Of a DNA stretch of 64,000 nucleotides, positions 3,610-61,888 are shown piece after piece (within the stretch, counting starts at the first letter, position 1; each line of letters starts with the position of its first letter). The DNA is from an uncultured archaeon. GTDB lineage: Archaea; Aenigmatarchaeota; Aenigmatarchaeia; CG10238-14; SCSR01. The position numbers and the translations under genes were made by a program. The stretch lies in contig CAZYHQ010000002.1 of NCBI GenBank assembly GCA_964646855.1, positions 9,127 through 73,126 of the forward strand. Reading direction: 5' to 3'. Below the pieces are notes generated by a model that saw only the letters and a list, made by a program, of their open reading frames with translations, did not search any database and was not told the DNA's origin.

Positions 3610-3891
3610 TTATCGCATATGTTTTTTACGTATGCTTTTTCCAGGCTGGACTATGCCCCTGAACCTGGCGCATGACGGACACACATGCATTTTTCGCTGT
3701 AGCATGTGAACCATCCTTCTGTCCACCTGCTGCAAAATCGCCGGGTCGGAAATTCTGAATCCCCTAGTTATTGAAAATGTTTTGTATTTCGGAACTTCCC
3801 TGTTGCAATAATCGCAGCGGACTGTGGTTTCGCTGCCGCGGCTTTTCGTGTGCCAATATTTCCTTGTATATGGGGCTGTACTAATCGGCAT
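3610..3891 (-). CDS. rps26e: 30S ribosomal protein eS26
   Basis: 93 aa. RCDYCNREVPKYK ... HVCPSCARFRGIV aligns with the eukaryotic/archaeal S26e zinc-ribbon pattern (RCxxCxxxVPKDK ... YCVSCAIH). Confidence 0.7.
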   Translation of the reverse strand: MPISTAPYTRKYWHTKSRGSETTVRCDYCNREVPKYKTFSITRGFRISDPAILQQVDRRMVHMLQRKMHVCPSCARFRGIVQPGKSIRKKHMR

Positions 3892-3949
3892 TTTCTCTAT
3901 AATTATTTGGTTTTTAATCTTATTATTTGCTTAAAATGAAAAGGTAATT

Positions 3950-4609
3950 ATGGGCGTTCTGGATAAAATCAAATGGTTCGGCCACGCAAGTTTTTCGTTG
4001 GAAAACAGCAACAAAAATTTCTACTTTGTGGATCCTTTTGACTTGAAAAGCAAGCCCAAAGAAGAAGCCGACGCTGTTTTCATAACCCACGCGCATTACG
4101 ACCACTGGAGCCCGAAAGATATAGAAAAAACTTTGGGCAAAGAGACAATTGTTGTACTAGTGAACGGTTGTGAAACTGCTTTGCCAGTTTCTACAGTCAA
4201 AATAATTAAAACAGAACCCTTTCGCGAGATAAATGTTGGCGGTATAAAAGTTCTTACTGTGCCTGCGTACAATACAAAACCAGAAAGAAAAAATTTCCAT
4301 CCAAAAGAAAACAAATGGGTCGGCTACATCTTTGAATTGGACAACGCAAGAATCTACCATGCAGGTGATACAGATTTTATTCCTGAAATGAAAGAGTTAG
4401 GGAATTTGGATGTTGCGATGTTGCCGATTGGTGGTACGTACACGATGGACGTAAGCGAAGCAATAGAAGCAGCAAATGTAATTAAATCAAAAATCACTGT
4501 ACCGATGCACTATCGCAGATTGCTGGGTGTAAAAGCAAAAGACGCGGAAGAAAAATTTGTTTCTAGTGTGAAAGGCAGAGTGGAAATTCTAGAAGAAGTT
4601 TCTTTGTAA
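3950..4609 (+). CDS. MBL-fold metallo-hydrolase
   Basis: 219 aa with the HAHYDH motif (FITHAHYDHWSP) and downstream GDTD and H residues typical of the beta-lactamase fold. Confidence 0.8.
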   Translation: MGVLDKIKWFGHASFSLENSNKNFYFVDPFDLKSKPKEEADAVFITHAHYDHWSPKDIEKTLGKETIVVLVNGCETALPVSTVKIIKTEPFREINVGGIKVLTVPAYNTKPERKNFHPKENKWVGYIFELDNARIYHAGDTDFIPEMKELGNLDVAMLPIGGTYTMDVSEAIEAANVIKSKITVPMHYRRLLGVKAKDAEEKFVSSVKGRVEILEEVSL

Positions 4610-11038: not shown

Positions 11039-11329
11039 GGCGTGCTGGTCATAGCCTCTCTTCTGTTTTTGCGTTCGCAGCCTTTTACAGCAGAAAACAC
11101 ATAGGTAGCATTTGTCTGAGCGCTCAACGCTTGCATCCAATTCACACTGTACCGTTTCATCCTGCTTTATCCCAACTCGCTTGCGCACATCGTTAACGGA
11201 ACAAAGCGGTGCCGTTTCTGATTACAGTGTAACCCTCTCGGGCTGCCTGTTATTCGGCGAATTAGCGGATGGAGAGAACTTCCTCACCCTGCGTTTGAAG
11301 GCAGAGCGAAGCTACCCAACCAGCTCGCC
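11039..11329 (-). ncRNA. rnpB: RNase P RNA
   Basis: GC-richer segment of about 291 nt.
- P1: 5' GGCGAGCUGGU pairs with 3' ACCAGCACGCC (one mismatch).
- P2: GGUAGC pairs with GCUACC.
- P3: hairpin CUCUGC..GCAGGG.
- CR-I-like GAGGAAGUUC; CR-II/III-like AGGAUGAAACGGUACAGUG; CR-V-like ACAGAAGAGAGGCUAU. Confidence 0.8.
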
Positions 11330-11364: not shown

Positions 11365-11952
11365 CTACACGTGAATCCCAGTTGCATGTTCCTCTCCACC
11401 ACAGCCGTCAGATAAATTCCAAACATCTGCTATCTGTGCAGAATTAAATCCATAATTTTTGATCAAATATTTAGCAAGACCCTCATACACATACCATCTC
11501 CAGCACATACAGCAGCAAGGCCCACCTTCATCCGACATTTTCATAGCTTCATCGTAAATTTTCTGCTCCTCAGATGTTAAAATTATACTGGTGTCATAAT
11601 TTAGTAATTCTTTTGCAAGACCCACAGTAATGTTGTAGGGATCTGTAGGAATTTTATCTATGTGCGAATATTTTTTCAATCCCTCAATTTGCTCATCGTA
11701 TCTGTGCAAGCTCATTTCGTCGCAACAAGATCCTTTCAAGGTTTCAGAATCAGATTTTCGTAAAACAGCATCCGGTCCGAAACAAAAAACATTTCCATTT
11801 GTGCTCAACTCTTCAAACCTTGCAACTATATTTTTATCTACGCCAGATATGGAAGCACTCTGACTAGTCTTATACGGTGCACCAACGAAAACAGAAATCA
11901 GTACAATTAATGAAACACTTACTGCTAAAATGTAAAAATAACTGTTTTTCAT
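11365..11952 (-). CDS. Membrane-anchored Cys-rich protein (PCC/CxC motif, possibly PCYCGC-family-like), paralog of 13148..13639
   Basis: N-terminal TM anchor, then motifs GSCCDE, GGPCCCMCWRW, YEGLAKYLIKNYG and SDGCGG. ATG 11952 (MKNSYFYIL) was chosen because it avoids overlap with the upstream gene. Confidence 0.65.
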   Translation of the reverse strand: MKNSYFYILAVSVSLIVLISVFVGAPYKTSQSASISGVDKNIVARFEELSTNGNVFCFGPDAVLRKSDSETLKGSCCDEMSLHRYDEQIEGLKKYSHIDKIPTDPYNITVGLAKELLNYDTSIILTSEEQKIYDEAMKMSDEGGPCCCMCWRWYVYEGLAKYLIKNYGFNSAQIADVWNLSDGCGGEEHATGIHV

Positions 11953-11959
11953 TTTTATT

Positions 11960-12715
11960 TCAAATCCCTTTATTTTCGGAATAAAAAATGTCAATTTTTC
12001 TTTTGACCGATTTCAAGTAAAAACTTGTTCCTTGTTCCTTCACGGTAAAACCATCTGCAAATTTTTCTTCTTTACTCGAATCATGATAGAATTTTACAAA
12101 AACTGAAAGCGGCGAGAAAAATCTTAGGATAGAAAAAGACAATTTTAGCAACGAACTTTTTCTTGCAATGTGTGCAATCTCGTGCAGCAAAACAGCTTCG
12201 AGCTCCTTTCTGTCAAGTACATCAAGCAAACCTACCGTGAAAAAGATTGCAGATTTAAAATTTCTGAAAGAGAACGCAGCAGGGATCGCTTTGTTCAGAG
12301 CATAGATTTTTGGGATCGGAAAATTTAATTTACTTGCATAACGCGTTACAATCTTCGTCATCCAGCTTATTTTTATTTCTCTGCTTTTGTTTGAAAAAAT
12401 ATAGTATGAAGGAATTACAATTGCGCCCACCAAAGTGCTCGCCAGAAAAGTAGTTGGCAAGGCCAGCAAAGTTAGACTTGTCAGATTGTTCTGACAAGGT
12501 GCGCACGCCACACTGCAGCCAACATTTGTTGTGAACAAGACAAACGGGAAAAACAGAAATGTAAGATGGCTGTAAATCAAAGCCAATTTGGTTTTCGTTC
12601 CGAAATTAGTACCTTTCAAAAAAATTAAAGTCACTATTGCGAGAAAGAAAGAGAAGACGGATAGCAGAACTTTGTCGTCAACCACTAATGGTATGCCAGC
12701 GAAGCAGCCAATCAT
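11960..12715 (-). CDS. BlaR1/MecR1-like M56 (M48-clan) zinc metallopeptidase without sensor domain
   Basis: 251 aa with N-terminal TM helices and the HExxH motif LLHEIAHIARK. A GCSVACAPC motif sits between TM helices. The ORF ends about 70 aa after HExxH. It overlaps the BlaI-like gene by 4 nt. Confidence 0.75.
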   Translation of the reverse strand: MIGCFAGIPLVVDDKVLLSVFSFFLAIVTLIFLKGTNFGTKTKLALIYSHLTFLFFPFVLFTTNVGCSVACAPCQNNLTSLTLLALPTTFLASTLVGAIVIPSYYIFSNKSREIKISWMTKIVTRYASKLNFPIPKIYALNKAIPAAFSFRNFKSAIFFTVGLLDVLDRKELEAVLLHEIAHIARKSSLLKLSFSILRFFSPLSVFVKFYHDSSKEEKFADGFTVKEQGTSFYLKSVKRKIDIFYSENKGI

Positions 12716-13089
12716 TTTTTCCTCCCTCTAAACCTTTCGTTAAAGTAAGTGACTGCTGCAGACCCGAAATCGTCGATCAACTTGTTTACAGTTTTTTCTA
12801 TTATGGACTGCTCTAAAGTAGCTTTAGAGAATTTTGGAAAATAAATGTAGTGCGCTCCCCCCCTCCCAACTTCTACCTTCCTCTCGACTATGCCTTTTTT
12901 GTGCAGCCTGTCCAAAATTACTGCGACACTCGTGAGCGCAACTTTCCTCCTCCGCTTTAAAATTTTGTGCAATTCCCTCACCCTTGATTGCTCCTTCTTC
13001 CAAAGAATTTCCAGAACATCGCACTCGAGGGGGCTTAGAAGAGACTTCACGCCGCTTTTATCGAAACTCATCTTGTTTACGCCAAGCAT
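12712..13089 (-). CDS. BlaI/MecI/CopY-family winged-helix transcriptional repressor
   Basis: 125 aa. LSPLECDVLEILWKK..RVRELHKIL......TSVAVILDRLHKKGIVERK matches the Penicillinase_R pattern. It is first in an operon with the M56 peptidase. Confidence 0.8.
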   Translation of the reverse strand: MLGVNKMSFDKSGVKSLLSPLECDVLEILWKKEQSRVRELHKILKRRRKVALTSVAVILDRLHKKGIVERKVEVGRGGAHYIYFPKFSKATLEQSIIEKTVNKLIDDFGSAAVTYFNERFRGRKK

Positions 13090-13147
13090 ATTTATTTAAA
13101 TATAGCTACCAGTATTTATAAGTATTACAAAATTTGTAAAGGATAGC

Positions 13148-13639
13148 ATGCAGCCCAAAAATGGAAATTTCATAGCGGCAATTGCAGTCGTTGTAGCAAT
13201 TTTCGTCGGGTTCCAAGTGTGGATTCTTTCCGGGGTTTACAGCGATCCTTATCAAGAGAAATTCGGTGCAGGACTTTTCGGTCTTGTAGATCATTCTGGA
13301 GTTAGCTCAAAATCTGGCATTGGCAAATACAGCAATCTTCCTCTTGGCGAAGATGGTTTCAACACAATGGTCGAATGGGACAAAACAATAACTTTAAGCG
13401 ACGAACAGAAAAAGCAATTTGCCGGGTTTAACACGAGATTGCCTTGCTGCGGTTTCGGTTTAACAACCGAGGACGAATTTAGCGACTGCAGATGCGGACA
13501 CCATCTTGCTTACGCCGGTTTGATTAAGTATGGTTTGACGAATGGTTGGGCGCGAGGGCAAATACAAGAAGAAATTGATCAATGGAAAACGGTATTTTAT
13601 CCAATCTGTTCGCAAAATCCAAAATTGTGTGATTTATGA
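13148..13639 (+). CDS. Membrane-anchored Cys-rich protein (PCC/CxC motif), paralog of 11365..11952
   Basis: 163 aa with an N-terminal TM anchor. Shares with the paralog the block WDKTITLSDEQKK...LPCCGFG...DCRCGHHLAYAGLIKYGLTNGW. Confidence 0.7.
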   Translation: MQPKNGNFIAAIAVVVAIFVGFQVWILSGVYSDPYQEKFGAGLFGLVDHSGVSSKSGIGKYSNLPLGEDGFNTMVEWDKTITLSDEQKKQFAGFNTRLPCCGFGLTTEDEFSDCRCGHHLAYAGLIKYGLTNGWARGQIQEEIDQWKTVFYPICSQNPKLCDL

Positions 13640-14151
13640 TGGGTAAATTAACATTAGGTTTGAAAATGCTGTTTAATGAAATGCGTTATGCCGCACTCAT
13701 TGTAATTTCTTCTGTAACCATTTCAATTTTGTTCATGTATTCGATGGGCGCGTTGTACCTAGATCCTTTATTTTTCAATTACTTTGAATTCTTTGAAGAC
13801 GGGTTGCTGAACATATCGTTGAATTTTGTTTATGTAACAATTGCGCCGATATTTGCGGGCATAACAGTTGCAAGCATTGTGTACAAGTTAGTAAACTTCA
13901 AAAAAAGTGTTTTCAAAGAAGGAAGCGCAGGATCTTTAGGTTTTGCATCTGCAGCTTTTGTAACAACATGCTCGAATTGCGTGCCTGTTGCATTATATTC
14001 TTTGGGGATAACGTATGGTTTATTTCAAGCAGCATTCGCTCCATTTGTTTTGCCGTTCAAACTTCTGACAATTGCAATAATATCTTTATCTTTTTATTTT
14101 GCCACAACTAGTTTAGGACAATTTTGTAAACTGAAAAAAACTCGGAGGTGA
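13636..14151 (+). CDS. Polytopic membrane protein with TM-embedded CSNC motif
   Basis: 171 aa with about 5 hydrophobic helices and GSAGSLGFASAAFVTTCSNCVPVAL. ATGA overlap with the upstream ORF. Confidence 0.6.
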   Translation: MMGKLTLGLKMLFNEMRYAALIVISSVTISILFMYSMGALYLDPLFFNYFEFFEDGLLNISLNFVYVTIAPIFAGITVASIVYKLVNFKKSVFKEGSAGSLGFASAAFVTTCSNCVPVALYSLGITYGLFQAAFAPFVLPFKLLTIAIISLSFYFATTSLGQFCKLKKTRR

Positions 14152-14155
14152 ATGA

Positions 14156-14332
14156 ATGAAATTTGATTTGACAATGGTAATGATAATTGCCGTGTTGGCC
14201 CTAGTTTCTGTCCAGACCATCCAACTTGTCGGGGTTATGTCAACAGTAAGCTCGCTGACTACAGGCAATTTGGCAACAGCAGCTACCGCTGCCAGCAGCT
14301 CACAGGCAATTTCAGGAATTGGTGGGTGCTAA
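14156..14332 (+). CDS. Small membrane peptide ending in Cys
   Basis: Absent from the ORF track (58 aa): MKFDLTMVMIIAVLALVSVQTIQLVGVMSTVSSLTTGNLATAATAASSSQAISGIGGC. A strong SD, GGAGGTGA, ends 5 nt before the ATG. Confidence 0.5.
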   Translation: MKFDLTMVMIIAVLALVSVQTIQLVGVMSTVSSLTTGNLATAATAASSSQAISGIGGC

Positions 14333-14370: not shown

Positions 14371-15504
14371 TTGAAATCTATCAAGAAACACAAAGAGAAA
14401 GTTTTAGCAATAGAATTGAAGGATTTTGATTTGAAGAGAATCATTCTCTTGATACTTACAGTCATATTGATTGTAGAAGTTCTTGTTACGTTCAATATCA
14501 ACACAACAATATTCAACAAACTCCGCCCCTCGAATCTGGAACTCATTCGTGTCGTTGACTCTTCTTGCTCGGATTGTCTTAACATAGACACAATTTCTTC
14601 AAAAATCCAGGACCAAAATGTAAAAATCTTGTCGGACAAGACTTTGGAAAGAAACTCTGCAGAAGCACAACAGATTATAAACAAATACGGATTAAAGAGG
14701 GTTCCAGTACTTTTGGTTTCCGGCGAAATAAGCAGAGACGAAAATCTAAAAAGCTCTTTCATCCAACTCGGCGGCATGATGACTCAGGATGTCATCCTTA
14801 TCGAAACCGAACCACCTTACGTGGACTTGTCTATGGAAGAAGTCAGGGGAAGAATTGCAATTACGAATATTATTGACAGTTCCTGCGACCTTTGCAGCAG
14901 CTTTGACGGCTTTGTCAGTACACTCGAAAATAATGGAGTTAGGATAACAGAAAGGAAGACACTCGAATATACTGCCACCGAAGCCAAAGATTTGATAAGC
15001 AAATTTTCAGTCCAAAAAATTCCAGCGATTGTCCTGTCGGCGGACATAGTCGAATACAAATTTGTCCAGAGTTTCTGGTCTCAGCTGAACGCCACAGAAA
15101 AATCTGGATTTTTCGCGCTGCACACAACCACACCACCTTACAGGAACACTTCAACAAACAAAATAGACGGGTTGGTTACCCTGTATACAATTACTGATGA
15201 CAGCTGCGCAAATTGTTACAACGCTTCCGTCCACAAACAAATTTTGCTCAGCTTCGGCATCAAACCGCAAAAGGAGTCAGTGATAGATATTTCTTCGCCG
15301 AGCGGCAAGGAAATCACAATCAAGTACAACATAACAAAAGTGCCTACGATTATGCTTTCGCCTGATGCGTCTCTGTATTCGTCTCTTGTGCAAATATGGC
15401 CTACAGTCGGTACAGTGGACAAGGACGGCTGGTTCGTTTTCAGAAATGTAGAAATAATGGGAACATACAAAGATTTGTCTAGTGGTAAAATTGTTGCCGG
15501 CTAA
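14371..15504 (+). CDS. Membrane-anchored protein with three tandem thioredoxin-fold CxxC modules
   Basis: 377 aa with a TM anchor. Three repeats of about 95 aa each carry D-S-C-x-x-C (SSCSDC, SSCDLC, DSCANC), a cis-Pro-like (V/I)P (KRVPVLLVS, QKIPAIVLS, TKVPTIMLS), and the first two end in PPY. TTG start is preceded by AAGGAG. Confidence 0.75.
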   Translation: MKSIKKHKEKVLAIELKDFDLKRIILLILTVILIVEVLVTFNINTTIFNKLRPSNLELIRVVDSSCSDCLNIDTISSKIQDQNVKILSDKTLERNSAEAQQIINKYGLKRVPVLLVSGEISRDENLKSSFIQLGGMMTQDVILIETEPPYVDLSMEEVRGRIAITNIIDSSCDLCSSFDGFVSTLENNGVRITERKTLEYTATEAKDLISKFSVQKIPAIVLSADIVEYKFVQSFWSQLNATEKSGFFALHTTTPPYRNTSTNKIDGLVTLYTITDDSCANCYNASVHKQILLSFGIKPQKESVIDISSPSGKEITIKYNITKVPTIMLSPDASLYSSLVQIWPTVGTVDKDGWFVFRNVEIMGTYKDLSSGKIVAG

Positions 15505-16099
15505 ATACAGGATTATTGCTCTGCTTGCAGCAGTAATCATAATCTCTGGTGCAGTTTATTCAAACATGTCGGCGAAAGACGCAACTCAAAAAACAAAGCA
15601 AAGTACTTTATCCACGATTACAGCCCTTGTGAGTATAAGCCAGCACAGGATACTCACACCTTCAGACTTTTCTGAACTTTCAAAAATGGTTGAAGGAGAC
15701 GCCATTGCTTCCAAGCAAGTGAAATATGCAATATGGTTTTCAGAGAACGGTATAGCAGAACACATGTCCCACAAGCTAGGAGACTTGTACAATTATATCG
15801 ATAAGGGCCAATACGAAGTTTGCATACCGCACGAAGTAGAACATATTCTGGATTACATAACGCTTGGGGATTCAGAAAAGCTAAAGGAAACTTTAGATGT
15901 TATCGATGACAATTACCAAGGGTGGTTCTCGAAATCATATTCTTTGAAACAGCAATATCCAAATACGTATGCCGCCTTGGACCAAGTCGTACTTGCAATA
16001 AATTCTGCCCTGACAAAACTAAAAAATGAAAATTACCAGATAGCTGCAGAAGTCGGTTTTATCAAAGGCTACAGCGAGCTTGGCTGTTCAGGTTTGTAA
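15482..16099 (+). CDS. Membrane-anchored hypothetical protein (His-containing helical ectodomain)
   Basis: 205 aa with an N-terminal TM anchor and motifs EHMSH and IPHEVEH. No family recognised. GTG start overlaps the upstream gene by 23 nt. Confidence 0.5.
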   Translation: MVKLLPAKYRIIALLAAVIIISGAVYSNMSAKDATQKTKQSTLSTITALVSISQHRILTPSDFSELSKMVEGDAIASKQVKYAIWFSENGIAEHMSHKLGDLYNYIDKGQYEVCIPHEVEHILDYITLGDSEKLKETLDVIDDNYQGWFSKSYSLKQQYPNTYAALDQVVLAINSALTKLKNENYQIAAEVGFIKGYSELGCSGL

Positions 16100-16144
16100 T
16101 CACAAAGAATAAATACTAACTTTTACAAATCTTGTAAAGGTAAA

Positions 16145-16744
16145 ATGCAAACTAAAATAAAAAAGACGCATTTTGCAATAATTGTTGTCGCTTTAGTCGT
16201 CTTGGTTGCAGCATCGGGATACTTTTTGTTAAATCCGTTTGGGACTTCTGGCGACGTGTTTTCTGCGAAAAGTTCACCTGCTTCTACTGGCGTAAGTCAG
16301 TCCTCATCCAAGGGCTTGTCGCCAGGCAACAAGGCACCAGATTTTGAGGTTACTACTGTTGACGGCAAAAAAATAAGTTTGGCTTCCCTAATCCAACAGA
16401 AGAAACCTTTTGTTTTATATTTTTTTGCAAGCTGGTGCCCATTTTGTACTGATGAGCTGACTAGACTGAAAGGCATCTACCCGGATTATCAGGATAAAGT
16501 AGGATTCGTTGCGGTGGATTTAGATTTGCAGGAAACTGAAGAAACAGTGACCAAATACAAGCTTTCGCACCAGTTTTTGGGCGACTTCGCTGCTGGCAAC
16601 AGGGACATATTGATAAATTACATGGTCATTGCAACCACAACAAAATATTTCATTGACAGCGACGGAGTTATTCTTACAAAGGGTTCGGGGGAAATTTCAG
16701 ATGCCCAGTGGAAGGCGCTGTTCCAAGATTTGGTAAACTTGTGA
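16145..16744 (+). CDS. TlpA/ResA-like membrane-anchored thiol-disulfide oxidoreductase
   Basis: 199 aa with a TM anchor and the redoxin-fold motif FVLYFFASWCPFCTDE. Confidence 0.85.
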   Translation: MQTKIKKTHFAIIVVALVVLVAASGYFLLNPFGTSGDVFSAKSSPASTGVSQSSSKGLSPGNKAPDFEVTTVDGKKISLASLIQQKKPFVLYFFASWCPFCTDELTRLKGIYPDYQDKVGFVAVDLDLQETEETVTKYKLSHQFLGDFAAGNRDILINYMVIATTTKYFIDSDGVILTKGSGEISDAQWKALFQDLVNL

Positions 16745-16748
16745 TTGT

Positions 16749-17432
16749 ATGGTAGATTTTGTACTGCTGTCATTAGCTCTAGCAGCCGGGGCTGCAGCCT
16801 TTTTTAATCCGTGCGGATTTGCAGTTCTGCCTGCTTACATTTCAAATTATTTTTCAAAATCTCAAAAGAAAAGTTCTCCAGCGAAAAGTCTTTTCAGTGG
16901 TGTTTCAGTCGGTGTCATAGCAACTTTAGGTTTTATTTTTCTTTTTGTAATCCTTGGAATGCTGCTGAAATTTGTAAGTCGGGATATCGGAAATTATATC
17001 CCGTGGATTGATTTTGTTCTAGGGCTGGTTTTAATTGGATTTGGATTACTGTTGATAGTCGGTAGGGGTTTTGGTTTTACAGTTCCAGTAAGATCCTTGC
17101 CTTTAGAAAACAATTTCTCCTTTTTCCAATACGGAATTGTTTATGGTCTAGCATCTTTAGGATGCACTCTGCCGATCTTCTTGTCTGTCGCATTCGGCTC
17201 GCTGGCCGCAACTTTTGTTGAAGGAATTTTCATGTTTTTTGCCTATGCTATAGGAATGAGTCTACCGTTTATTGCAGTCACGATCGCTACAGTTCTGTCT
17301 AAAGATATTTTCGTCAGCAAACTGCAGTCTTATCTTAAGTATATGAAAACAATCAATGCAATCATACTGATTTTCGTCGGTCTTTATTTGATTTACTTCC
17401 AACTAAATGCTGGTTTGTTGGTTAGAGTATGA
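16749..17432 (+). CDS. ccdA: CcdA/DsbD-family transmembrane thiol-disulfide electron transporter
   Basis: 227 aa, polytopic. The two conserved TM cysteines lie in FFNPCGFAVLPAYI and LASLGCTLPIFL. Confidence 0.85.
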   Translation: MVDFVLLSLALAAGAAAFFNPCGFAVLPAYISNYFSKSQKKSSPAKSLFSGVSVGVIATLGFIFLFVILGMLLKFVSRDIGNYIPWIDFVLGLVLIGFGLLLIVGRGFGFTVPVRSLPLENNFSFFQYGIVYGLASLGCTLPIFLSVAFGSLAATFVEGIFMFFAYAIGMSLPFIAVTIATVLSKDIFVSKLQSYLKYMKTINAIILIFVGLYLIYFQLNAGLLVRV

Positions 17433-17481: not shown

Positions 17482-18150
17482 ATGGAAAAAGCTGAATGCA
17501 AACATTGCGGAAAAAAGTTCGACTCATCAAGATCTTTAGAGCAGCATATAGCAGCTAAACATTCTGGCACCTACCAGTCAGCGAAAGTTGTCAAGAAAAA
17601 ATTTACATACAAGAGTTTGATTTTGTATGCAATAATTTCTTCGATAGCTGGCATTGGAATTTACGGCATTATCTGGGCTGTAACTTCGCCAAGTCAGATT
17701 GGTCCCATAGGATCCACACACATACATGCAGACATAGCAGTTTTTCTTGACGGAAGGCAGATAACTCCGTTTGGTCCGCAATACTACGTGCGAGCCAGCC
17801 ATGTTCATGTCGAATCTGGCCCTGGGGAAGGTACTGTGATCCACATACATGCAACTGGTGTGCCATTGGGAAACTTCTTCAGCACTTTGGGAATGAAGTT
17901 TAACAAAGACTGCTTTGTTAGTGACAACAAAGTTAATTACTGCAATTCTGATAGCAAAACTTTGAAAATGTTTGTAAAGCATGAAGGCGGCAATTGGACA
18001 CAAAACTTTGATTATGATAAATATGTGTTTACCGATTTGGACAAAATTTTAGTAACATACGGAGGCGAAACTCCAGACCAATTAGAATTGCATATGAACG
18101 CAGTTACGGATTTCTCGAAGGACAATTCAGGTAGAAAAATGCCCGTGTGA
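17482..18150 (+). CDS. C2H2 zinc finger - TM helix - His-rich ectodomain protein
   Basis: 222 aa. N-terminal CKHCGKKFDSSRSLEQHIAAKH (Cx2Cx12Hx4H), one TM helix, then an ectodomain with THIHADIAVF and HVHVESG..GTVIHIHATG. Confidence 0.6.
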   Translation: MEKAECKHCGKKFDSSRSLEQHIAAKHSGTYQSAKVVKKKFTYKSLILYAIISSIAGIGIYGIIWAVTSPSQIGPIGSTHIHADIAVFLDGRQITPFGPQYYVRASHVHVESGPGEGTVIHIHATGVPLGNFFSTLGMKFNKDCFVSDNKVNYCNSDSKTLKMFVKHEGGNWTQNFDYDKYVFTDLDKILVTYGGETPDQLELHMNAVTDFSKDNSGRKMPV

Positions 18151-18292: not shown

Positions 18293-18835
18293 ATGAAAAA
18301 TAAAATTTTCGTACTTGTCCTTGTGGCAGTTGTATTAGCTTCGAGTAGCGTGTTAGCCCACCAAGTCGAAAAAACAAAGACAGTCGAAGAAATTCTCGCA
18401 GAAATTACGAGAGAACAAAATGTTGTTGCTGTGAGTCAGATCGACTGCAATAAAGTTTCTAATTTGCAATTTGAAGACCTTGGGGATGCTGTAATGGAAA
18501 GAATGGTTGGTAGCCACGAGCAGCATGAACAAATGGATGCAATGATGGGCGGAGAAGGCTCAGCTAGTCTTGTGCAAATGCACACGATTATGGGAAAAAA
18601 TTGGTTGAGTTGCAACAATTTGCAGGGAATGATGGTTGTAGGAATGACAGGAACTAACATGATGCCAATGATGATGAGAATGATGGGGAATTACTATCCA
18701 GCGTACTACAGCAGATACGATTCCTTGTTGGTTTTTACTTTAATCGGATGGGCACTCGCAATAATTCTGCTTGTGGTGTTATTAATTTTTTCAACAACTG
18801 GAAAATTAAAATTCCGAAAGAGAAGAATTGAATAA
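18293..18835 (+). CDS. Exported Met/His-rich protein with C-terminal TM anchor (putative Cu(I) binding)
   Basis: 180 aa with a signal peptide, then HEQHEQMDAMMGGEG and GMMVVGMTGTNMMPMMMRMMG, and a C-terminal TM helix. Confidence 0.6.
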   Translation: MKNKIFVLVLVAVVLASSSVLAHQVEKTKTVEEILAEITREQNVVAVSQIDCNKVSNLQFEDLGDAVMERMVGSHEQHEQMDAMMGGEGSASLVQMHTIMGKNWLSCNNLQGMMVVGMTGTNMMPMMMRMMGNYYPAYYSRYDSLLVFTLIGWALAIILLVVLLIFSTTGKLKFRKRRIE

Positions 18836-21016: not shown

Positions 21017-21439
21017 ATGTTGTTTGGAAAAATAAACAGGTTAAAAGGGAAATTGTCAGCTGTATTTGGAAATGCCGCTGGTGTCGGCAGCATCATCTCC
21101 GCGCACAACGTTTGTCATTGGCTGTGCCTTGCTGCGGTAGCCGCACTTTCTGTTTTTGGTATTGCAGTCTCGAGTACGGCTTTGATGTTTCTAGAAGATT
21201 ACAATTTACTTTTTTGGGGTATGGGTTTGGCCTTTCTTGCCGTTAGTTTGTTTCTTTACTCAAAAAATCCAAAATGCATTTCAAAAAAACTTATTTTGTT
21301 TAACGTTGGTTTGCTTGTTATCGGCACGCCCTTCGTTGCACAGTTCAGTTCATTTTTTTGGCTTACCGGAGGTTTAATTGTCGCCATGACTTCTGGATTT
21401 TATTTCAAAGAAAAATTTTTTGCTGGTGAAAAAGAATGA
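21017..21439 (+). CDS. Polytopic membrane protein with TM-embedded CHWLC motif
   Basis: 140 aa with GNAAGVGSIISAHNVCHWLCLAAVAAL. This resembles GSAGSLGFASAAFVTTCSNCVPVAL in ORF 13636..14151. Confidence 0.55.
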   Translation: MLFGKINRLKGKLSAVFGNAAGVGSIISAHNVCHWLCLAAVAALSVFGIAVSSTALMFLEDYNLLFWGMGLAFLAVSLFLYSKNPKCISKKLILFNVGLLVIGTPFVAQFSSFFWLTGGLIVAMTSGFYFKEKFFAGEKE

Positions 21440-21666
21440 AAAACCGAAATGCGAAACTGATCTACATTGCATTAGTCGCAATCGCTGCAATTTTTATTTT
21501 TACTGTTTACGTATACTACCAGACTTATTTCGGTACAGAATATACGCGGGCTGTTTCAAGTCAGAACACAAACAACATTTGTCAAGTCCCTCTGGGCTAC
21601 ACAGAGGAAGCGTGGAAAGAACACATGAGCCATCATCCAGATCAGTATAGAGAGTGTCTCAGATGA
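21436..21666 (+). CDS. Small single-TM protein with Cys/His tail
   Basis: 76 aa with a TM anchor, then NNICQVP...EEAWKEHMSHHPDQYRECLR. ATGA overlap with the upstream ORF. Confidence 0.45.
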   Translation: MKNRNAKLIYIALVAIAAIFIFTVYVYYQTYFGTEYTRAVSSQNTNNICQVPLGYTEEAWKEHMSHHPDQYRECLR

Positions 21667-22037
21667 AGAAAGTAACATACGCAATAACTATTTTAGTTAT
21701 TGCGGTAGTAACGATTGCATATTACTTATTTTCACAATCTGCAAGCGGGCTAGGGAAGTACGATGATTTTGCAAAATGTATCACTGAAAAAGGGATAGTT
21801 GTTTACGGCGCATACTGGTGCCCGCACTGTTTGAATCAAAAAAACATATTTGGTAGCAGTTGGAAATACGTTGACTACGTTGAGTGCGACCCGAAGGGTA
21901 TAAATGCAAACCTGCAACTCTGCCAAGAAAAGGGAATCAGCGGATACCCAACCTGGGATATCGGCGGTAGACAATACGCAGGTGAACTAACTTTGTCTAG
22001 TTTGGCGAAACTTTCCGGCTGCAGCCTGCCAAAATAA
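21654..22037 (+). CDS. Membrane-anchored thioredoxin-like protein of the type fused to bacterial VKOR
   Basis: 127 aa with a TM anchor. YGAYWCPHCLNQKNIFG...YVECDPKG...LCQEKGISGYPTW.IGG matches the Trx-like domain appended to cyanobacterial VKOR homologs. Confidence 0.75.
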   Translation: MSQMKKVTYAITILVIAVVTIAYYLFSQSASGLGKYDDFAKCITEKGIVVYGAYWCPHCLNQKNIFGSSWKYVDYVECDPKGINANLQLCQEKGISGYPTWDIGGRQYAGELTLSSLAKLSGCSLPK

Positions 22038-22487: not shown

Positions 22488-24554
22488 ATGGCAACCGATC
22501 CTGTTTGTGGAATGCACGTTGATGAAAAGAAAGCAGTGTTCAAAAAAGAAGTTGATGGTAAGACAGTATATTTCTGCAGCGAGGTTTGCTTGAGGACTTT
22601 TGAAAAACCTGAAGCTGAGTTGAAAAGATTAAAACTTTTAGTAATTTTGGGTGCAATAATTTCTATTCCGACTATTGCGCTCTCCTTTTTTATAAAAATC
22701 CCTTACAACAATTTTGTTTTGTTAATTTTGTCGGCTCCTGTCCAATTCTATGCAGGCTGGAGATTTTACAAAGGTACGTTTGATGCGCTGAAAGCAAAAT
22801 ACGCGAATATGGATACACTAATTGCAACAGGCACAACAGCAGCCTGGCTTTATAGTACAGCAGTGACTTTCTTTCCAACAATAATTCAAGGCGAAACTTA
22901 CTTTGACGTTTCTGTAATAATTGTGACTTTGATTTTGTTCGGCCGTTATCTCGAAGACATCGCAAAGGGCAAAGCATCTTCTGCAATCAAACGACTGATG
23001 GGTCTACAACCAAAAACAGCAACAGTCATTCGCGCAGGAAAAGAAATCGAAGTCCAGATAGAGGATTTAAAAGTTGGGGATATCGTAGTTGTCAAACCTG
23101 GTGAAAGAATTCCGGTTGATGGTATTGTTGTTGAAGGGCATTCCTCGGTTGACGAATCAGCAATTACTGGAGAGAGCATGCCTGTTGGCAAAAAAATCGG
23201 TGACGAAGTTATCGGAGCTACTATCAATAAATCTGGTTTGCTAAAATTCAAAACGACAAAAGTTGGTAAGGATACAGTTCTGTCGCAAATAATACAAATA
23301 GTCCAGCAAGCATTGACAACCAAAGCACCAATTCAGCGTCTGGCAGACAAAGTGTCATCCTATTTTGTACCAGCTGTAATTTTAGTTGCACTAGCTTCTT
23401 TCTTCTTATGGTTCTATTTGACTGGTTTCAACTTTTTGTTCGCTCTAACAATTACGATTGCAATCTTGATCATTGCCTGCCCGTGTGCTTTAGGAATAGC
23501 AACACCAACTGCGATTCTTATTGGAACAGGACTGGGAGCAGAAAGCGGGATTCTAATCAAAGGTGGAGAGGCTTTGGAAACCACGCACAAACTTACAACT
23601 GTTGTTTTTGACAAGACTGGCACTCTAACAAAAGGTCAACCATCAGTCACAGATGTGATACCTGTTGGAGTCGAACAGAAGGAAGCTCTGATGCTTGCAG
23701 CTGTAGCTGAAAAAGGATCTGAACACCCGATTGGTGAAGCAATAGTAAAACGTGCAGAAGAACTGAAAATAAAATTAGCAAATGTAAAGAACTACGAAAC
23801 AATTGCAGGCAAAGGGATAAAAACAAAATATCTGAACAAAATAATTTTGGTAGGAAATAGGGAATTCATAAAGGAAAACAAAATCGATGCAGAAAAAATT
23901 GAGAGCACGCTGCAAAAATTAGAAGGGGAAGGAAAAACTGCAGTTATCGTTTCGTTCGGAGGCGTAGTCAAAGGTGTCATTGCAGTTGCGGATACGCTGA
24001 AGAAGTTTTCAAAGGAAGCAGTAGAGGAGCTGCACAAAATGGGTAAAGAGGTTATTATGATTACTGGTGACAACGAAAGAACTGCCGACGCGATCGCAAA
24101 GCAAGTTGGTATCGATAGAGTTTTTGCACGAGTTCTGCCCGGTGAGAAAGCGAGCATTGTCAAGAAATTGCAGGAAGAGAAAAAAATTGTTGCAACTGTC
24201 GGCGACGGCATTAACGATGCACCAATGCTTGCTCAAGCCGATGTCGGGATTGCCATAGGCAGCGGTACGGATGTAGCATTGGAAACTGGGAAAATAGTTT
24301 TGATAAAAAATGATTTGCGGGATGTGGTTACTGCAATAGATTTGAGCAAATTCACAATAAACAAAATAAAACAGAATTTATTTTTGGCTTTTGTTTACAA
24401 TGTTGCAGGCATACCGATTGCTGCTGGTCTGCTTTATCCTTTCTTCGGATTCCTGTTGAGTCCGATAATTGCCGGAGCGGCCATGGCTTTCAGCTCTGTT
24501 TCTGTTGTAGGCAACTCACTGCTGATGAAAAGATATAAACCCAAATTGCGTTAG
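22488..24554 (+). CDS. copA: Copper-translocating P1B-type ATPase with N-terminal YHS/TRASH domain
   Basis: 688 aa. N-terminus [12 protein letters not shown]...YFCSEVC, TM CPC motif ([13 protein letters not shown]), [18 protein letters not shown]. Confidence 0.95.
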
Positions 24555-25153: not shown

Positions 25154-25189
25154 ATATGAATTTAATTTCATATGAAATTAAATTCATAT
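25154..25189. promoter_or_regulatory. 36-bp perfect palindrome (putative ArsR-family operator)
   Basis: ATATGAATTTAATTTCAT|ATGAAATTAAATTCATAT was verified base by base. Its symmetry centre (25171/25172) coincides with the annotated ATG of the ArsR-family gene, in the divergent intergenic region shared with acyP. Confidence 0.6.
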
Positions 25190-25489
25190 GTTTTGTTTGT
25201 TAGGGCATTCGGGAGTCCCTTAAGATTGCAAATTCTTGAAGTGTTAAAGAAATCGCCTAAATCTGTAACGCAAATTTGTGATGAACTGGGAGTCGAACAA
25301 AGCAAGATTTCTCATAACTTAAGATGTCTTGTAGATTGCGGTTTTGTGAAAAACAAGAAGGAAGGTAGGAAGCGAGTTTATTCTTTAAATAAAGAAACGG
25401 TTTTCCCGTTGATGAAAATCATAGATAGACACATCGACAAATACAAAGACCATTTAGTTGCTTGTGGTGTGATAAAGGAGGTTGTATAA
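25172..25489 (+). CDS. ArsR/SmtB-family metalloregulator
   Basis: 105 aa: FGSPLRLQILEVLKKSPKSVTQICDELGVEQSKISHNLRCLVDCGFV (wHTH) with C-terminal Cys residues. It lies immediately upstream of merA. Confidence 0.85.
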   Translation: MKLNSYVLFVRAFGSPLRLQILEVLKKSPKSVTQICDELGVEQSKISHNLRCLVDCGFVKNKKEGRKRVYSLNKETVFPLMKIIDRHIDKYKDHLVACGVIKEVV

Positions 25490-25570
25490 ATGAAAACGAA
25501 AACATTGTGTGGCAATGAGGGAGAAGGCGGTTGTTCTCCATTCGTTCCAGATAATTTTAAAAAAATGTGA
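25490..25570 (+). CDS. Mini-ORF with Cys pair, in frame with merA across a TGA
   Basis: Absent from the ORF track (26 aa): MKTKTLCGNEGEGGCSPFVPDNFKKM. The strong SD AAGGAGGT ends 7 nt before the ATG. Its TGA stop (25568-70) is in the same frame as the merA ORF. Confidence 0.4.
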   Translation: MKTKTLCGNEGEGGCSPFVPDNFKKM

Positions 25571-25600
25571 GGTGAAAAAATTATACAAGAAAAATTTGAC

Positions 25601-27001: not shown

Positions 27002-27006
27002 TATGA

Positions 27007-27165
27007 ATGGTAAAAAGAATAGCACATGAAGGGGTAAATTATTTTGCATGCAACATCTGCGATTTCAGATATGCAGATAAAAAAACCGCAGAGGAGTGCG
27101 AAAATTATTGCAGAACTCACAAGAGCTGTTCGATGGAAATCACGAAGCATGCCGTGAAGATTTAA
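27007..27165 (+). CDS. Small Cys-rich zinc-ribbon-like protein
   Basis: Absent from the ORF track (52 aa): MVKRIAHEGVNYFACNICDFRYADKKTAEECENYCRTHKSCSMEITKHAVKI (CxxC...CxxxC...C). It begins 6 nt after the merA stop. Confidence 0.5.
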   Translation: MVKRIAHEGVNYFACNICDFRYADKKTAEECENYCRTHKSCSMEITKHAVKI

Positions 27166-27197
27166 ATTGTAAATAGCGAATAAATAAAAGAGGCTGT

Positions 27198-27449: not shown

Positions 27450-27453
27450 TGAA

Positions 27454-27585: not shown

Positions 27586-27589
27586 TCGA

Positions 27590-61859: not shown

Positions 61860-61888
61860 TAGAATAAATTGAAAGTTAAAAATAAATG

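What the first reader, a model, noticed from the sequence alone, without database searches (positions are those of the whole stretch)
11365..13639. Sensor-less BlaR1/BlaI-type proteolytic switch with a CxxxCxxC loop, bracketed by two paralogous PCC-motif envelope proteins
ORF 12712..13089 is a BlaI/MecI/CopY-type winged-helix repressor. It is translationally coupled (4-nt overlap) to 11960..12715, an M56-like peptidase with HEIAH.

That peptidase stops about 70 aa after the HExxH, so it has no penicillin-binding or other extracellular sensor domain. Instead it carries GCSVACAPC between its TM helices.

Two membrane-anchored paralogs bracket the pair: 11365..11952 lies downstream on the same strand, and 13148..13639 is divergent across a 58-nt promoter region. 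They share (Y/W)D.(S/T)I.L(T/S).E.QK ... PCC ... CxC ... Y.GL.KY...N.G.

Inference: a thiol-reactive (metal or redox) signal sensed by the membrane Cys cluster could drive BlaR-like cleavage of the repressor and so control Cys-rich envelope proteins. I know of no described archaeal system of this kind.
Basis: partly seen in the sequence, partly recalled or inferred. Interest (0 to 1): 0.8.

Follow-up and report, generated by a model that had tools for sequence, protein, structure and literature searches.

The report
Archaeal BlaI–protease switch with cysteine sensor
A tiny-celled (DPANN) archaeon carries a stripped-down relative of the bacterial BlaI/BlaR1 antibiotic-sensing switch; two always-conserved outward-facing cysteines replace the antibiotic-binding domain, and the switch appears to control uncharacterised cysteine-rich envelope proteins linked to copper and mercury resistance.

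Summary
At 11365–13639 there is a BlaI-type repressor (Pfam Penicillinase_R, 60 bits). It overlaps by 4 nt a 251-aa membrane HExxH peptidase that ends 69 aa after the motif. Two homologous Cys-rich anchored proteins flank the pair (hhalign 95%, E 2e-8).

Corrections:
- The peptidase scores as M48 (above the Pfam cutoff), not M56 (below it).
- Only C67 and C74 are invariant (82/82 homologues). C4 is in 78% and C71 in 44%.
- Only the divergent paralogue (PCC-B) is conserved next to the pair. The downstream one (PCC-A) sits there only in the window, its closest relative and one more distant locus.

New evidence:
- The repressor–peptidase pair is adjacent in 80 of 83 DPANN loci.
- A palindrome, TTACA-N5-TGTAA, carries BlaI/CopY-type half-sites. 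It occurs exactly twice in the window (0.08 expected), at the divergent promoter and upstream of a ResA/CcdA pair.
- The same palindrome is about 45-fold enriched in related loci, almost always at promoters of the same genes.
- The predicted regulon comprises PCC-B, a 4-TM CxxC protein, a small peptide ending …GGC, a triple thioredoxin, ResA and CcdA.
- Nearby lie a copper ATPase and MerA. PCC-A relatives in CPR bacteria sit beside ArsR, CopA, MerA and MerC genes.

Verdict: a new archaeal variant of BlaIR-type proteolytic signalling, probably sensing thiophilic metal or thiol stress. Cleavage and the signal are untested.

The parts
12712..13089 (-). BlaI/MecI/CopY-family winged-helix repressor (125 aa) with no C-terminal Cys motif
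   Evidence: Pfam Penicillinase_R, 60.2 bits against 22.6. Best PDB sequence hit is M. tuberculosis BlaI 2g9w, E 3.6e-6, followed by S. aureus BlaI and MecI. 75 of 79 homologues have no Cys in the last 40 aa.
12742..12747 (-). Y115-F116, the candidate scissile bond inside the most conserved C-terminal motif (A-V-x-Y-F-N-E-R-F)
   Evidence: Y and F are at least 90% conserved among 79 homologues. HMMER aligns repressor residue 105 with BlaI residue 91. Extending without gaps puts Y115-F116 on the BlaI N101-F102 cleavage site, which has a P1' Phe. This is an inference; BlaI residues 92-102 were taken from memory.
11960..12715 (-). 251-aa membrane zinc metallopeptidase of the M48/M56 superfamily: three TM helices plus a cytoplasmic HExxH...E domain, with no TM4 and no C-terminal sensor
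   Evidence: Pfam M48, 50.3 bits (passes); M56, 20.2 bits (fails). AF2 model pLDDT 84.6. Foldseek matches HtpX, ZMPSTE24 and BepA, and also BlaR1 8exp/8exr. H178/E179/H182/E217/D221 are conserved in 81/82 homologues.
12494..12520 (-). GCSVACAPC loop (residues 66-74) between TM2 and TM3, predicted to face outward; C67 and C74 are invariant
   Evidence: C67 and C74 are present in 82/82 homologues and C71 in 36/82. The loop has mean K+R 0.09, against 3.4 and 5.8 for the flanking cytoplasmic segments. Its position matches EL1 of BlaR1, between helices alpha2 and alpha3.
11365..11952 (-). PCC-A: anchored extracytoplasmic Cys/His-rich protein (195 aa), starting 7 nt after the peptidase stop
   Evidence: At least 760 homologues in DPANN archaea and CPR bacteria, none with a Pfam domain. 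Eight invariant Cys and a C-terminal His-rich tail. AF2 pLDDT 88.3 with no PDB fold neighbour.
13090..13147 (.). 58-nt divergent promoter region with AT-rich TATA-like elements
   Evidence: Read directly. Promoter elements are inferred, not tested.
13125..13139 (.). Operator 1: perfect palindrome TTACAAAATTTGTAA (TACA/TGTA half-sites, N5 spacing), 9 nt upstream of the PCC-B ATG
   Evidence: One of only two exact matches in 64 kb, where 0.08 are expected. The same motif lies upstream of the repressor gene in 41/77 loci. There are 86 sites in 1.19 Mb of related loci against 1.9 in shuffles.
13148..13639 (+). PCC-B: anchored Cys-rich paralogue (163 aa) and first gene of the divergent operon
   Evidence: hhalign against the PCC-A profile: 95.4%, E 2e-8. 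PCC-B-like genes occur in 61/83 loci, usually divergent from the repressor.
13636..14151 (+). 4-TM membrane protein with CxxC (TTCSNC) in a TM helix ('TM4')
   Evidence: Hydropathy and Cys positions. Homologues carry C-P-x-C and often a C-terminal CxxC. It is fused to a PCC-B-like domain in L011, L009 and L088. No Pfam match, and it is not MerC.
14156..14332 (+). 58-aa anchored peptide ending ...SGIGGC-COOH
   Evidence: 50 of 53 homologues end in GGC, usually (N/D)LPxMVGGC.
14371..15504 (+). Anchored protein with three thioredoxin-like domains, each with CxxC
   Evidence: Pfam Thioredoxin_3 and further weak Trx hits. Cys pairs at 66/69, 172/175 and 279/282. Present in 48/83 loci.
15482..16099 (+). 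205-aa anchored protein of unknown function, last gene of the operon
   Evidence: ORF only. No significant family match and no homologue in the related loci. A 210-aa gene occupies the same position in L170.
16123..16137 (.). Operator 2: TTACAAATCTTGTAA, 7 nt upstream of the ResA-like ATG
   Evidence: The second of the two exact matches in the window.
16145..16744 (+). ResA/TlpA-like anchored thiol-disulfide oxidoreductase (WCPFC)
   Evidence: Pfam AhpC-TSA 66 bits and Redoxin 44.8 bits. NCBIfam ResA subfamily E 9e-19, below its cutoff.
16749..17432 (+). CcdA/DsbD-type membrane thiol electron transporter (two Cys in TM segments)
   Evidence: BLASTP to proteins annotated DsbD_TM in L005 and L003. 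CcdA-like genes occur in 38/83 loci.
22488..24554 (+). Context: Cu(I)-type P1B ATPase with an N-terminal YHS domain
   Evidence: NCBIfam TIGR01511, 625 bits against 397. CPC, N(x6)YN(x4)P and MxxSS motifs read from the sequence; their assignment to the Cu(I) class rests on my own knowledge. Homologous ATPases lie within +-10 kb of the pair in 23/83 loci.
25172..27001 (+). Context: ArsR/SmtB metalloregulator (25172..25489) followed by mercuric reductase MerA (25601..27001, ends ...SCCIE)
   Evidence: NCBIfam HTH_metalloreg 76.5 bits; MerA TIGR02053 548 bits against 454.

Best explanation
This is a BlaI/BlaR-type proteolytic derepression switch of DPANN archaea. The window is most likely from Aenigmatarchaeota.

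Proposed mechanism
1. The 125-aa winged-helix repressor binds TTACA-N5-TGTAA palindromes as a dimer.
2. This shuts off three units. The first is its own operon (repressor, peptidase, PCC-A). The second is the divergent operon (PCC-B, 4-TM CxxC protein, GGC-tailed peptide, triple thioredoxin, 205-aa protein). The third is the ResA-CcdA pair.
3. The partner is a minimal M48/M56-superfamily zinc protease with three TM helices and a cytoplasmic catalytic domain. It has no sensor domain.
4. Its input element is instead an invariant Cx6C pair, CxxxCxxC in this lineage, in the short outward-facing TM2-TM3 loop, together with an N-terminal outward-facing Cys. In BlaR1 the same loop (EL1) relays the signal to helix alpha3 and the protease.
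5. A thiophilic metal, Cu(I) or Hg(II) being the most likely, or a thiol oxidant, cross-links or oxidises these cysteines. That shifts TM3 and activates the protease.
6. The protease cuts the repressor near its conserved C-terminal Y115-F116. The dimer falls off the DNA.
7. The cell then makes extracytoplasmic Cys-rich metal-binding and thiol-repair proteins.

Shown: gene identities, conserved pairing, cysteine conservation, predicted topology, operator enrichment and placement, and the metal/thiol context.
Inferred: DNA binding, cleavage, the cleavage site, the nature of the signal and the direction of regulation.
For: Identity and pairing
- Repressor and peptidase family assignments.
- The pair is adjacent in 80/83 loci from Aenigmatarchaeota, Woesearchaeota, Pacearchaeota, Micrarchaeota, Iainarchaeota, Nanohaloarchaea and Nanoarchaeota. 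The commonest spacing is the 4-nt overlap.
- The family is discrete. 154 clusters score E<=1e-30, the full-length ones among the 150 listed are about 220-270 aa, and none has a C-terminal extension. The median is 66 aa after HExxH.

Cysteines and topology
- C67 and C74 are present in 82/82 homologues, matching the zinc ligands (81/82). C4 is present in 64/82.
- Topology: K+R averages 0.07 for the N-terminus and 0.09 for the Cys loop, against 3.4 and 5.8 for the other two loops. AF2 helices 14-34, 40-69 and 78-108.
- In BlaR1, EL1 lies between alpha2 and alpha3, and its displacement moves alpha3 and the protease domain (PMC9834060).

Operator
- Two exact sites in the window against 0.08 expected, both just upstream of start codons.
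- 86 sites against 1.9 expected across related loci. 76 of them lie within 150 nt upstream of the repressor, PCC-B, TM4, ZF222 or ResA genes.
- The half-sites equal those of the BlaI/MecI/CopY TACAxxTGTA box (PMC5772342).
- The repressor lacks CopY-type Cys ligands, so it cannot sense metal the way CopY does.

Metal link
- CopA, ArsR and MerA lie within 14 kb.
- CopA-like ATPases lie near the pair in 23/83 loci, and MerA in L011 and L025.
- PCC-A relatives in CPR bacteria sit in ArsR / PCC-A / TM4-PCC-B fusion / MerA and MerA / MerC / PCC-A operons, and beside CopA in 12/46 loci.
Against: - No experiment or structure shows cleavage, DNA binding or metal binding.
- By sequence the peptidase is nearer HtpX/M48 than BlaR1/M56. 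HtpX enzymes are quality-control proteases.
- The repressor ends only about 10 residues after the putative scissile bond, whereas BlaI has 24 more by my recollection of its 126-aa sequence. Cleavage there may therefore not break the dimer.
- C71 is not conserved. A Cys pair can also be a structural disulfide.
- The regulon is as rich in thiol-redox genes (triple thioredoxin, ResA, CcdA) as in metal genes, so the signal could be redox rather than metal.
- CopA and MerA are absent from most loci, and here MerA has its own ArsR regulator.
- ORFs in the related loci were called mechanically, and the iterated profiles for TM4 and the small peptide may have drifted at the weak end.
Confidence: 0.55

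Rival explanations
1. The switch is the same, but the input is purely the extracytoplasmic thiol-disulfide balance. C67-C74 cycle between dithiol and disulfide, possibly through exchange with the triple thioredoxin, ResA or the GGC-tailed peptides. The regulon is then an envelope disulfide-reduction or isomerisation pathway. Metals are involved only indirectly.
For: The predicted regulon is dominated by CxxC thioredoxin-fold proteins and CcdA. The conserved unit is a Cys pair, Cx6C, typical of a redox switch, and the third Cys varies. Thioredoxin reductase and glutaredoxin-like genes are nearby in the window and in L001.
Against: PCC-A carries a His-rich tail and CC/CCC clusters, which are more typical of metal sites. 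The same cargo genes sit beside ArsR/SmtB metalloregulators, CopA, MerA and MerC in other genomes. A Met-rich protein and a Cu ATPase lie in the island.
Confidence: 0.22
2. The cysteines are structural: a disulfide staple or a lipid-facing packing element. The signal reaches the protease in trans from a regulon protein that stands in for the missing sensor domain, for example PCC-B, the 4-TM CxxC protein or the LPxMVGGC-tailed peptide docking on the loop. Alternatively the protease is constitutively active and is controlled by its own abundance or turnover.
For: In BlaR1 the equivalent loop works by docking into a separate domain. PCC-B and the GGC peptide are the most constant neighbours of the pair. 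They share a strictly conserved C-terminal motif of the kind an interaction partner would recognise.
Against: There is no direct evidence of any interaction. About a quarter of the loci show the pair without PCC-B within 10 kb, although several of those contigs are short. Invariance equal to that of the catalytic residues is unusual for a purely structural disulfide in so short a loop.
Confidence: 0.13
3. The peptidase is an HtpX-like membrane quality-control protease that merely shares an operon with the repressor. The repressor is released by another route, such as a ligand or oxidation, and is not cleaved.
For: Pfam and PDB profile searches favour M48/HtpX over M56/BlaR1. The top Foldseek hits are HtpX and ZMPSTE24.
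Against: Scores are far below every HtpX equivalog cutoff: 55 bits against 245-422. The pair is adjacent and usually translationally coupled in 80/83 loci. That is the hallmark of BlaIR systems, in which 96% of BlaR homologues lie within five genes of BlaI. The HExxH-to-Glu spacing is about 35 residues, as in BlaR1 by my recollection (H201...E242). The repressor has no conserved Cys or other evident ligand site.
Confidence: 0.08

Closest known systems
S. aureus / B. licheniformis BlaI-BlaR1 and MecI-MecR1
   Same: A winged-helix repressor gene lies immediately upstream of a membrane HExxH...E protease gene. The protease has three N-terminal TM helices and a cytoplasmic catalytic domain. The pair is divergent from the regulated genes. 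The operator is a palindrome with TACA/TGTA half-sites. A conserved aromatic-Phe sits at the position of the BlaI N101-F102 scissile bond.
   Different: There is no TM4 and no extracellular penicillin-binding domain. The EL1 loop is shortened from about 40 to about 8 residues and carries an invariant Cys pair. Half-site spacing is N5 rather than N2. The Pfam M56 model is not passed. The host is archaeal. The regulon consists of Cys-rich and thiol-redox envelope proteins, not a beta-lactamase or PBP.
Non-canonical BlaIR systems: M. tuberculosis/M. abscessus BlaI-BlaR (Rv1846c/Rv1845c), C. difficile CenIR, P. aeruginosa PvmSR
   Same: These BlaR-like proteases also lack a transpeptidase sensor and are paired with BlaI-like repressors. 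Their signals are unknown and they do not regulate beta-lactam resistance. M. tuberculosis BlaI is the best PDB sequence match of this repressor.
   Different: The C. difficile BlaR-like proteins described there carry M56 domains with short, mostly unstructured C-terminal regions. This family stops right after the catalytic domain. No Cys-based input has been proposed for the bacterial systems. None is archaeal.
CopY/TcrY copper repressors (BlaI family)
   Same: Same repressor fold family and the same TACA/TGTA half-sites. The link is to copper homeostasis.
   Different: CopY senses Cu(I)/Zn(II) itself through C-terminal CxC motifs and needs no protease. This repressor has no C-terminal Cys and falls below the CopY_TcrY cutoff (38 bits against 122).
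HtpX / M48 membrane metalloproteases
   Same: Best sequence and profile similarity over the catalytic core.
   Different: It falls far below the HtpX equivalog cutoffs, is shorter, has a different TM layout, and is always coupled to a repressor gene.
Envelope thiol systems for copper tolerance (DsbD/CcdA with thioredoxin-like partners, e.g. Salmonella ScsABCD) and mer operon Hg(II) relay proteins (MerP/MerT/MerC)
   Same: The regulon combines a CcdA-type electron conduit, anchored CxxC thioredoxin folds, a membrane protein with an intramembrane CxxC, and secreted Cys-rich binders next to CopA and MerA. This comparison rests on my own knowledge of those systems.
   Different: PCC-A, PCC-B, the 4-TM protein and the GGC-tailed peptide have no detectable sequence or fold relationship to Scs or Mer proteins.

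Membership tests
BlaR1/MecR1 (Peptidase_M56, PF05569) | Score above the Pfam M56 gathering threshold | tested here: not met
   20.2 bits against a cutoff of 31. NCBIfam blaR1_generic scores 12.9 against 400. BlaR1 is not found at E<=1 in the PDB profile search.
BlaR1/MecR1 (Peptidase_M56, PF05569) | Gluzincin site HExxH plus a downstream Glu in a cytoplasmic domain after three TM helices | tested here: met
   H178/E179/H182/E217 are conserved in 81/82 homologues. There are three TM helices and positive-inside topology. Foldseek aligns the whole length with BlaR1 8exr/8exp (E 5e-3 to 4e-2).
BlaR1/MecR1 (Peptidase_M56, PF05569) | Gene adjacent to, and downstream of, a BlaI-family repressor gene | tested here: met
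   80/83 loci. A 4-nt overlap is the commonest spacing.
BlaR1/MecR1 (Peptidase_M56, PF05569) | Fourth TM helix plus an extracellular penicillin-binding (transpeptidase-fold) sensor domain | tested here: not met
   The protein ends 69 aa after HExxH. The family median is 66 aa after HExxH, and the full-length members listed are about 220-270 aa.
BlaR1/MecR1 (Peptidase_M56, PF05569) | Signal-dependent cleavage of the cognate repressor | not testable with these tools
   Needs biochemistry. There is only a positional match of the conserved Y115-F116 to BlaI N101-F102.
HtpX / Peptidase_M48 (PF01435) | Score above the Pfam M48 gathering threshold | tested here: met
   50.3 bits against 20.3, covering profile positions 5-116 of 186 only.
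HtpX / Peptidase_M48 (PF01435) | Equivalog-level match to HtpX (NCBIfam) | tested here: not met
   The best score is 55 bits, against cutoffs of 245-422.
BlaI/MecI/CopY repressors (Penicillinase_R, PF03965) | Pfam domain above threshold, with a winged helix followed by a C-terminal helical dimerisation region | tested here: met
   60.2 bits against 22.6, covering profile positions 1-95 of 115. PDB hits are 2g9w, 1sd4 and 1okr.
BlaI/MecI/CopY repressors (Penicillinase_R, PF03965) | Palindromic operator with TACA/TGTA half-sites at the regulated promoters | tested here: met
   TTACA-N5-TGTAA occurs at 13125 and 16123 and is conserved and enriched in related loci. The spacing differs from the canonical N2. 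Binding itself was not tested.
CopY/TcrY copper repressors | C-terminal CxC(...CxC) metal-binding motif and an equivalog score | tested here: not met
   75/79 homologues have no Cys in the last 40 aa. TIGR02698 scores 38.4 against 121.95.
PCYCGC-motif proteins (PF13798), suggested for the flanking ORFs | Pfam match | tested here: not met
   No Pfam family at E<=0.1 or <=1 for PCC-A, PCC-B or five diverse PCC-B homologues.
MerC/MerT Hg(II) transporters, considered for the 4-TM CxxC protein | Pfam MerC or MerT match | tested here: not met
   No match for the window protein or seven homologues. A genuine MerC from L087, run as a control, scored 38 bits.

The most novel reading that the evidence does not exclude
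The pair controls a previously undescribed extracytoplasmic 'thiol-arm' system that is specific to ultra-small DPANN archaea, with parts shared with CPR bacteria.

In this reading the system has four kinds of component. PCC-domain proteins have a fold with no solved relative. A 4-TM protein carries an intramembrane CxxC. Membrane-tethered peptides carry a strictly conserved C-terminal (N/D)LPxMVGGC, whose terminal cysteine acts as a swinging thiol. A triple thioredoxin is recharged through CcdA.

Together they would capture and relay soft metals, or reducing equivalents, across the envelope. The protease would read the state of this relay directly, by metal bridging or mixed-disulfide formation between its invariant loop cysteines and the GGC arm. 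That would make it the first BlaR-type receptor with a defined non-antibiotic, covalent-chemistry input.
Probability: 0.25. Interest if true: 0.85.

Novelty: new variant of a known kind. Interest (0 to 1): 0.64.

Why it matters
Most BlaR-like receptors lack a beta-lactam sensor, and their activating signals are unknown (Kurtz et al. 2026).

This clade offers an unusually clean case with a concrete, testable input and output. It has a minimal receptor, two invariant outward-facing cysteines at the position of the signalling loop, a sharply defined operator and a conserved regulon.

It also extends BlaIR-type regulated proteolysis to archaea.

Finally, it points to a set of abundant proteins in DPANN and CPR organisms that have no annotation: the PCC domain (at least 760 clusters in the search), the 4-TM CxxC protein and the LPxMVGGC-tailed peptides. 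These are probably involved in copper or mercury handling or in envelope thiol chemistry. Such organisms are common in metal-bearing groundwater.

Tried and rejected
- Pfam/NCBIfam assignment of PCC-A, PCC-B, the 4-TM protein and the small peptide, including the PCYCGC suggestion: nothing at E<=1.
- PDB sequence-profile search and Foldseek search with a confident PCC-A model: no neighbour, best E 3.2.
- MerC identity for the 4-TM protein: rejected, with a positive control.
- Using Foldseek to decide between M48 and M56: both families match with similar probability and low TM-scores, so fold does not discriminate.
- Literature search for the MVGGC motif and for archaeal BlaI/BlaR systems: nothing relevant.
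- Looking up the window's own contig through P0001: not on record. The taxon is therefore inferred from the nearest loci, which are Aenigmatarchaeota.
- CopY-type direct metal sensing by the repressor: rejected, because it has no Cys ligands.
- 'Two paralogues bracket the pair' as a conserved architecture: rejected.

Full report
**1. Observation**

The six-frame ORF list and the sequence confirm all four ORFs and their geometry.
- The repressor is at 12712..13089(-).
- The peptidase is at 11960..12715(-). Its ATG overlaps the repressor stop by 4 nt (ATGA).
- PCC-A is at 11365..11952(-), beginning 7 nt after the peptidase stop.
- PCC-B is at 13148..13639(+), across a 58-nt spacer.
- HEIAH (residues 178-182) lies 69 aa from the C-terminus. 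GCSVACAPC is at residues 66-74.
- An archaeal RNase P RNA gene (Rfam, 101 bits) follows PCC-A at 11040..11328, so the replicon is archaeal.

**2. Identity of the pair**

The repressor passes Pfam Penicillinase_R with 60.2 bits against a cutoff of 22.6. Its best match among solved structures is M. tuberculosis BlaI, ahead of S. aureus BlaI and MecI.

The peptidase passes Peptidase_M48 (50.3 bits) and fails Peptidase_M56 (20.2 against 31).
- It hits HtpX equivalogs at about 55 bits, far below their cutoffs of 245-422.
- A family profile finds HtpX and Ste24 in the PDB, but not BlaR1.
- A confident AF2 model (pLDDT 84.6) matches both M48 structures (HtpX, ZMPSTE24, BepA) and, over its whole length, BlaR1 (8exp, 8exr).
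- I therefore class it as a member of the M48/M56 superfamily, not as a member of M56.

**3. It behaves like a BlaIR pair**

A genome scan returned 80 loci, all from DPANN archaea, with Aenigmatarchaeota closest. With three loci found earlier, I called ORFs mechanically and searched them with iterated profiles.
- A BlaI-like gene lies directly upstream of the peptidase gene in 80/83 loci. The commonest spacing is the same 4-nt overlap.
- An exhaustive HMMER search of 1.84 billion representatives finds 154 clusters at E<=1e-30. The full-length ones among the 150 listed are about 220-270 aa. A long tail of generic M48/M56 hits follows.
- The family is therefore discrete and uniformly lacks any C-terminal extension.
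- This alone is not exceptional. Kurtz et al. 2026 report that only about 6% of M56 proteins have a transpeptidase domain and that 96% lie within five genes of a BlaI-like gene. Their survey does not mention archaea.

**4. The cysteines**

I aligned 82 unique homologues.
- C67 and C74 are invariant (82/82), on a par with H178, E179, H182, E217 and D221 (81/82).
- C4 is present in 64/82 and C71 in 36/82. The conserved unit is therefore Cx6C plus an N-terminal Cys. CxxxCxxC is a lineage feature.
- Hydropathy gives three TM segments, agreeing with AF2 helices 14-34, 40-69 and 78-108.
- Lys+Arg averages 3.4 in the TM1-TM2 loop and 5.8 after TM3. It averages only 0.07 in the N-terminus and 0.09 in the Cys loop.
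- With the catalytic domain in the cytoplasm, C4, C67 and C74 face outward.
- In the BlaR1 cryo-EM work, the loop between helices alpha2 and alpha3 (EL1) occupies the sensor's active site. Its displacement kinks alpha3 and moves the protease domain.
- The archaeal Cys loop sits at that same position, shortened to about 8 residues.

**5. Operator and regulon**

The spacer contains a perfect palindrome, TTACAAAATTTGTAA (13125..13139).
- The pattern TTACA-N5-TGTAA has exactly two matches in 64 kb, where 0.08 are expected. The second (16123..16137) lies 7 nt upstream of the ResA-like gene.
- TACA-N5-TGTA occurs upstream of the repressor gene in 41/77 loci. There are often two copies 60-70 bp apart.
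- Across 1.19 Mb of related loci there are 86 exact sites, against 1.9 in shuffles. Of these, 76 lie within 150 nt upstream of the repressor (51), PCC-B (40), TM4 (7), ZF222 (6) or ResA (2) genes.
- The half-sites are those of the BlaI/MecI/CopY box TACAxxTGTA, with a different spacing.

The conserved neighbourhood is a divergent operon of PCC-B, a small peptide and a triple thioredoxin, with or without the 4-TM protein and CcdA. It is found in roughly 50-60 loci. PCC-A follows the peptidase directly only in the window and its closest relative L170. In L039 it lies 1.7 kb from the peptidase start.

**6. The regulated proteins**

PCC-A:
- It has at least 760 homologues in DPANN archaea and CPR bacteria, at 50-60% identity, none with a Pfam domain.
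- It has eight invariant cysteines (C, CC, PCCCxC, C) and a His-rich tail.
- Its confident AF2 model has no PDB neighbour.

PCC-B shares the C-terminal domain of PCC-A.

The 4-TM protein carries CxxC in a TM helix. It is fused to a PCC-B-like domain in several genomes.

The small peptides end in GGC in 50/53 cases, usually as (N/D)LPxMVGGC. So do 38/65 PCC-B-like proteins. I found no literature on this motif.

**7. Metal context**

The window itself contains the following.
- A Met-rich protein at 18293..18835.
- A Cu-type P1B ATPase with a YHS domain (TIGR01511, 625 bits).
- An ArsR/SmtB regulator.
- A bona fide MerA (TIGR02053, 548 bits against 454) ending in a CC pair.

Elsewhere:
- CopA-like ATPases lie within 10 kb of the pair in 23/83 loci. 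MerA is present in L011 and L025.
- In CPR bacteria, PCC-A sits in MerA / MerC / PCC-A and ArsR / PCC-A / TM4-PCC-B fusion / MerA operons.
- I examined 46 PCC-A-centred metagenome loci of at least 4 kb. A TM4-like gene or the TM4-PCC-B fusion is present in most of them and is usually adjacent to PCC-A.
- Other neighbours in those 46 loci are CopA-like genes (12 loci), ArsR-type regulators (about 13), MerA (3) and the BlaI-peptidase pair (6).
- The same cargo is therefore placed under known metalloregulators in other lineages. That argues for a soft-metal function.

The repressor has no Cys ligands, so CopY-like direct sensing is excluded.

**8. Mechanism and rivals**

The best reading is a BlaR-like proteolytic switch whose input is thiol chemistry at the outward-facing Cys pair. 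Cu(I) or Hg(II) is the most likely trigger. The output is derepression of envelope Cys-rich and thiol-redox proteins.

By ungapped extension of the HMMER alignment, the conserved Y115-F116 falls on BlaI N101-F102. This step is inferred, and the repressor has only about 10 residues beyond that bond.

The rivals are as follows.
- A pure redox signal.
- Structural cysteines, with a sensor acting in trans.
- An HtpX-like housekeeping role.

None of the three is excluded by computation.

**9. Novelty**

The regulatory principle is known, and sensor-less BlaRs are common in bacteria. The new elements are these.
- The archaeal clade itself.
- The minimal architecture.
- The invariant Cys input at the EL1 position.
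- The N5 operator.
- The uncharacterised regulon.

I rate it a new variant of a known kind.

Noticed in passing
window 14156..14332; also L005 4537..4737, L005 4748..5455, L003 115..828 and about 85 more ORFs in L007-L086: A strictly conserved extreme C-terminal motif, (N/D)LPxMVGGC-COOH. It occurs on small membrane-anchored low-complexity peptides (50/53) and on many PCC-B-like proteins (38/65). The window peptide ends SGIGGC. No Pfam family and no literature were found.
   Followed up: partly
L087 3165..5576; L088 4685..8514: In CPR bacteria (Giovannonibacteria, Gottesmanbacteria) PCC-A homologues lie in mer-like operons. One is MerA / MerC / PCC-A. The other is ArsR / PCC-A / 496-aa fusion of the 4-TM CxxC domain with a PCC-B-like domain / MerA.
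   Followed up: partly
window 25172..28681: An ArsR/SmtB regulator, a core MerA without an N-terminal metal-binding domain (ends SCCIE), a glutaredoxin-like protein and a thioredoxin reductase. This is a compact archaeal mer/thiol cluster. Part of it is syntenic with L001.
   Followed up: partly
window 17482..18150: A 222-aa protein with an N-terminal C2H2 zinc finger, one TM helix and a His-rich extracytoplasmic domain (HIHAD..HVHVE..IHIHATG). It is found in 32/83 related loci. In 6 cases the TTACA-N5-TGTAA operator lies upstream of it.
   Followed up: partly
window 18293..18835: An anchored protein with Met-rich stretches (MMPMMMRMMG, HEQHEQMDAMMGGE) that resemble Cu(I)-binding Met motifs.
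   Followed up: no
window 21017..21439 and 21654..22037: A 140-aa membrane protein (NVCHWLC motif, in 26/83 related loci) and a 127-aa anchored thioredoxin-like protein (YWCPHC). Both recur near the pair in distant loci, e.g. L005 2182..2592 and 3838..4311.
   Followed up: no
window 61888..61977 (-): ARAGORN calls a 90-nt tRNA with a CUA (amber-reading) anticodon, labelled tRNA-Pyl. Rfam confirms a tRNA there (47.5 bits). The length suggests an intron or a mis-assigned anticodon.
   Followed up: no
window 11040..11328 (-): An archaeal RNase P RNA gene (Rfam RF00373, 101 bits) lies 37 nt downstream of the PCC-A stop, on the same strand.
   Followed up: no
peptidase residues 48, 50, 57 (window about 12545..12574): Y48, H50 and P57 inside TM2 are almost invariant (79-81 of 82). 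They could be a further metal ligand or part of the signal relay.
   Followed up: no
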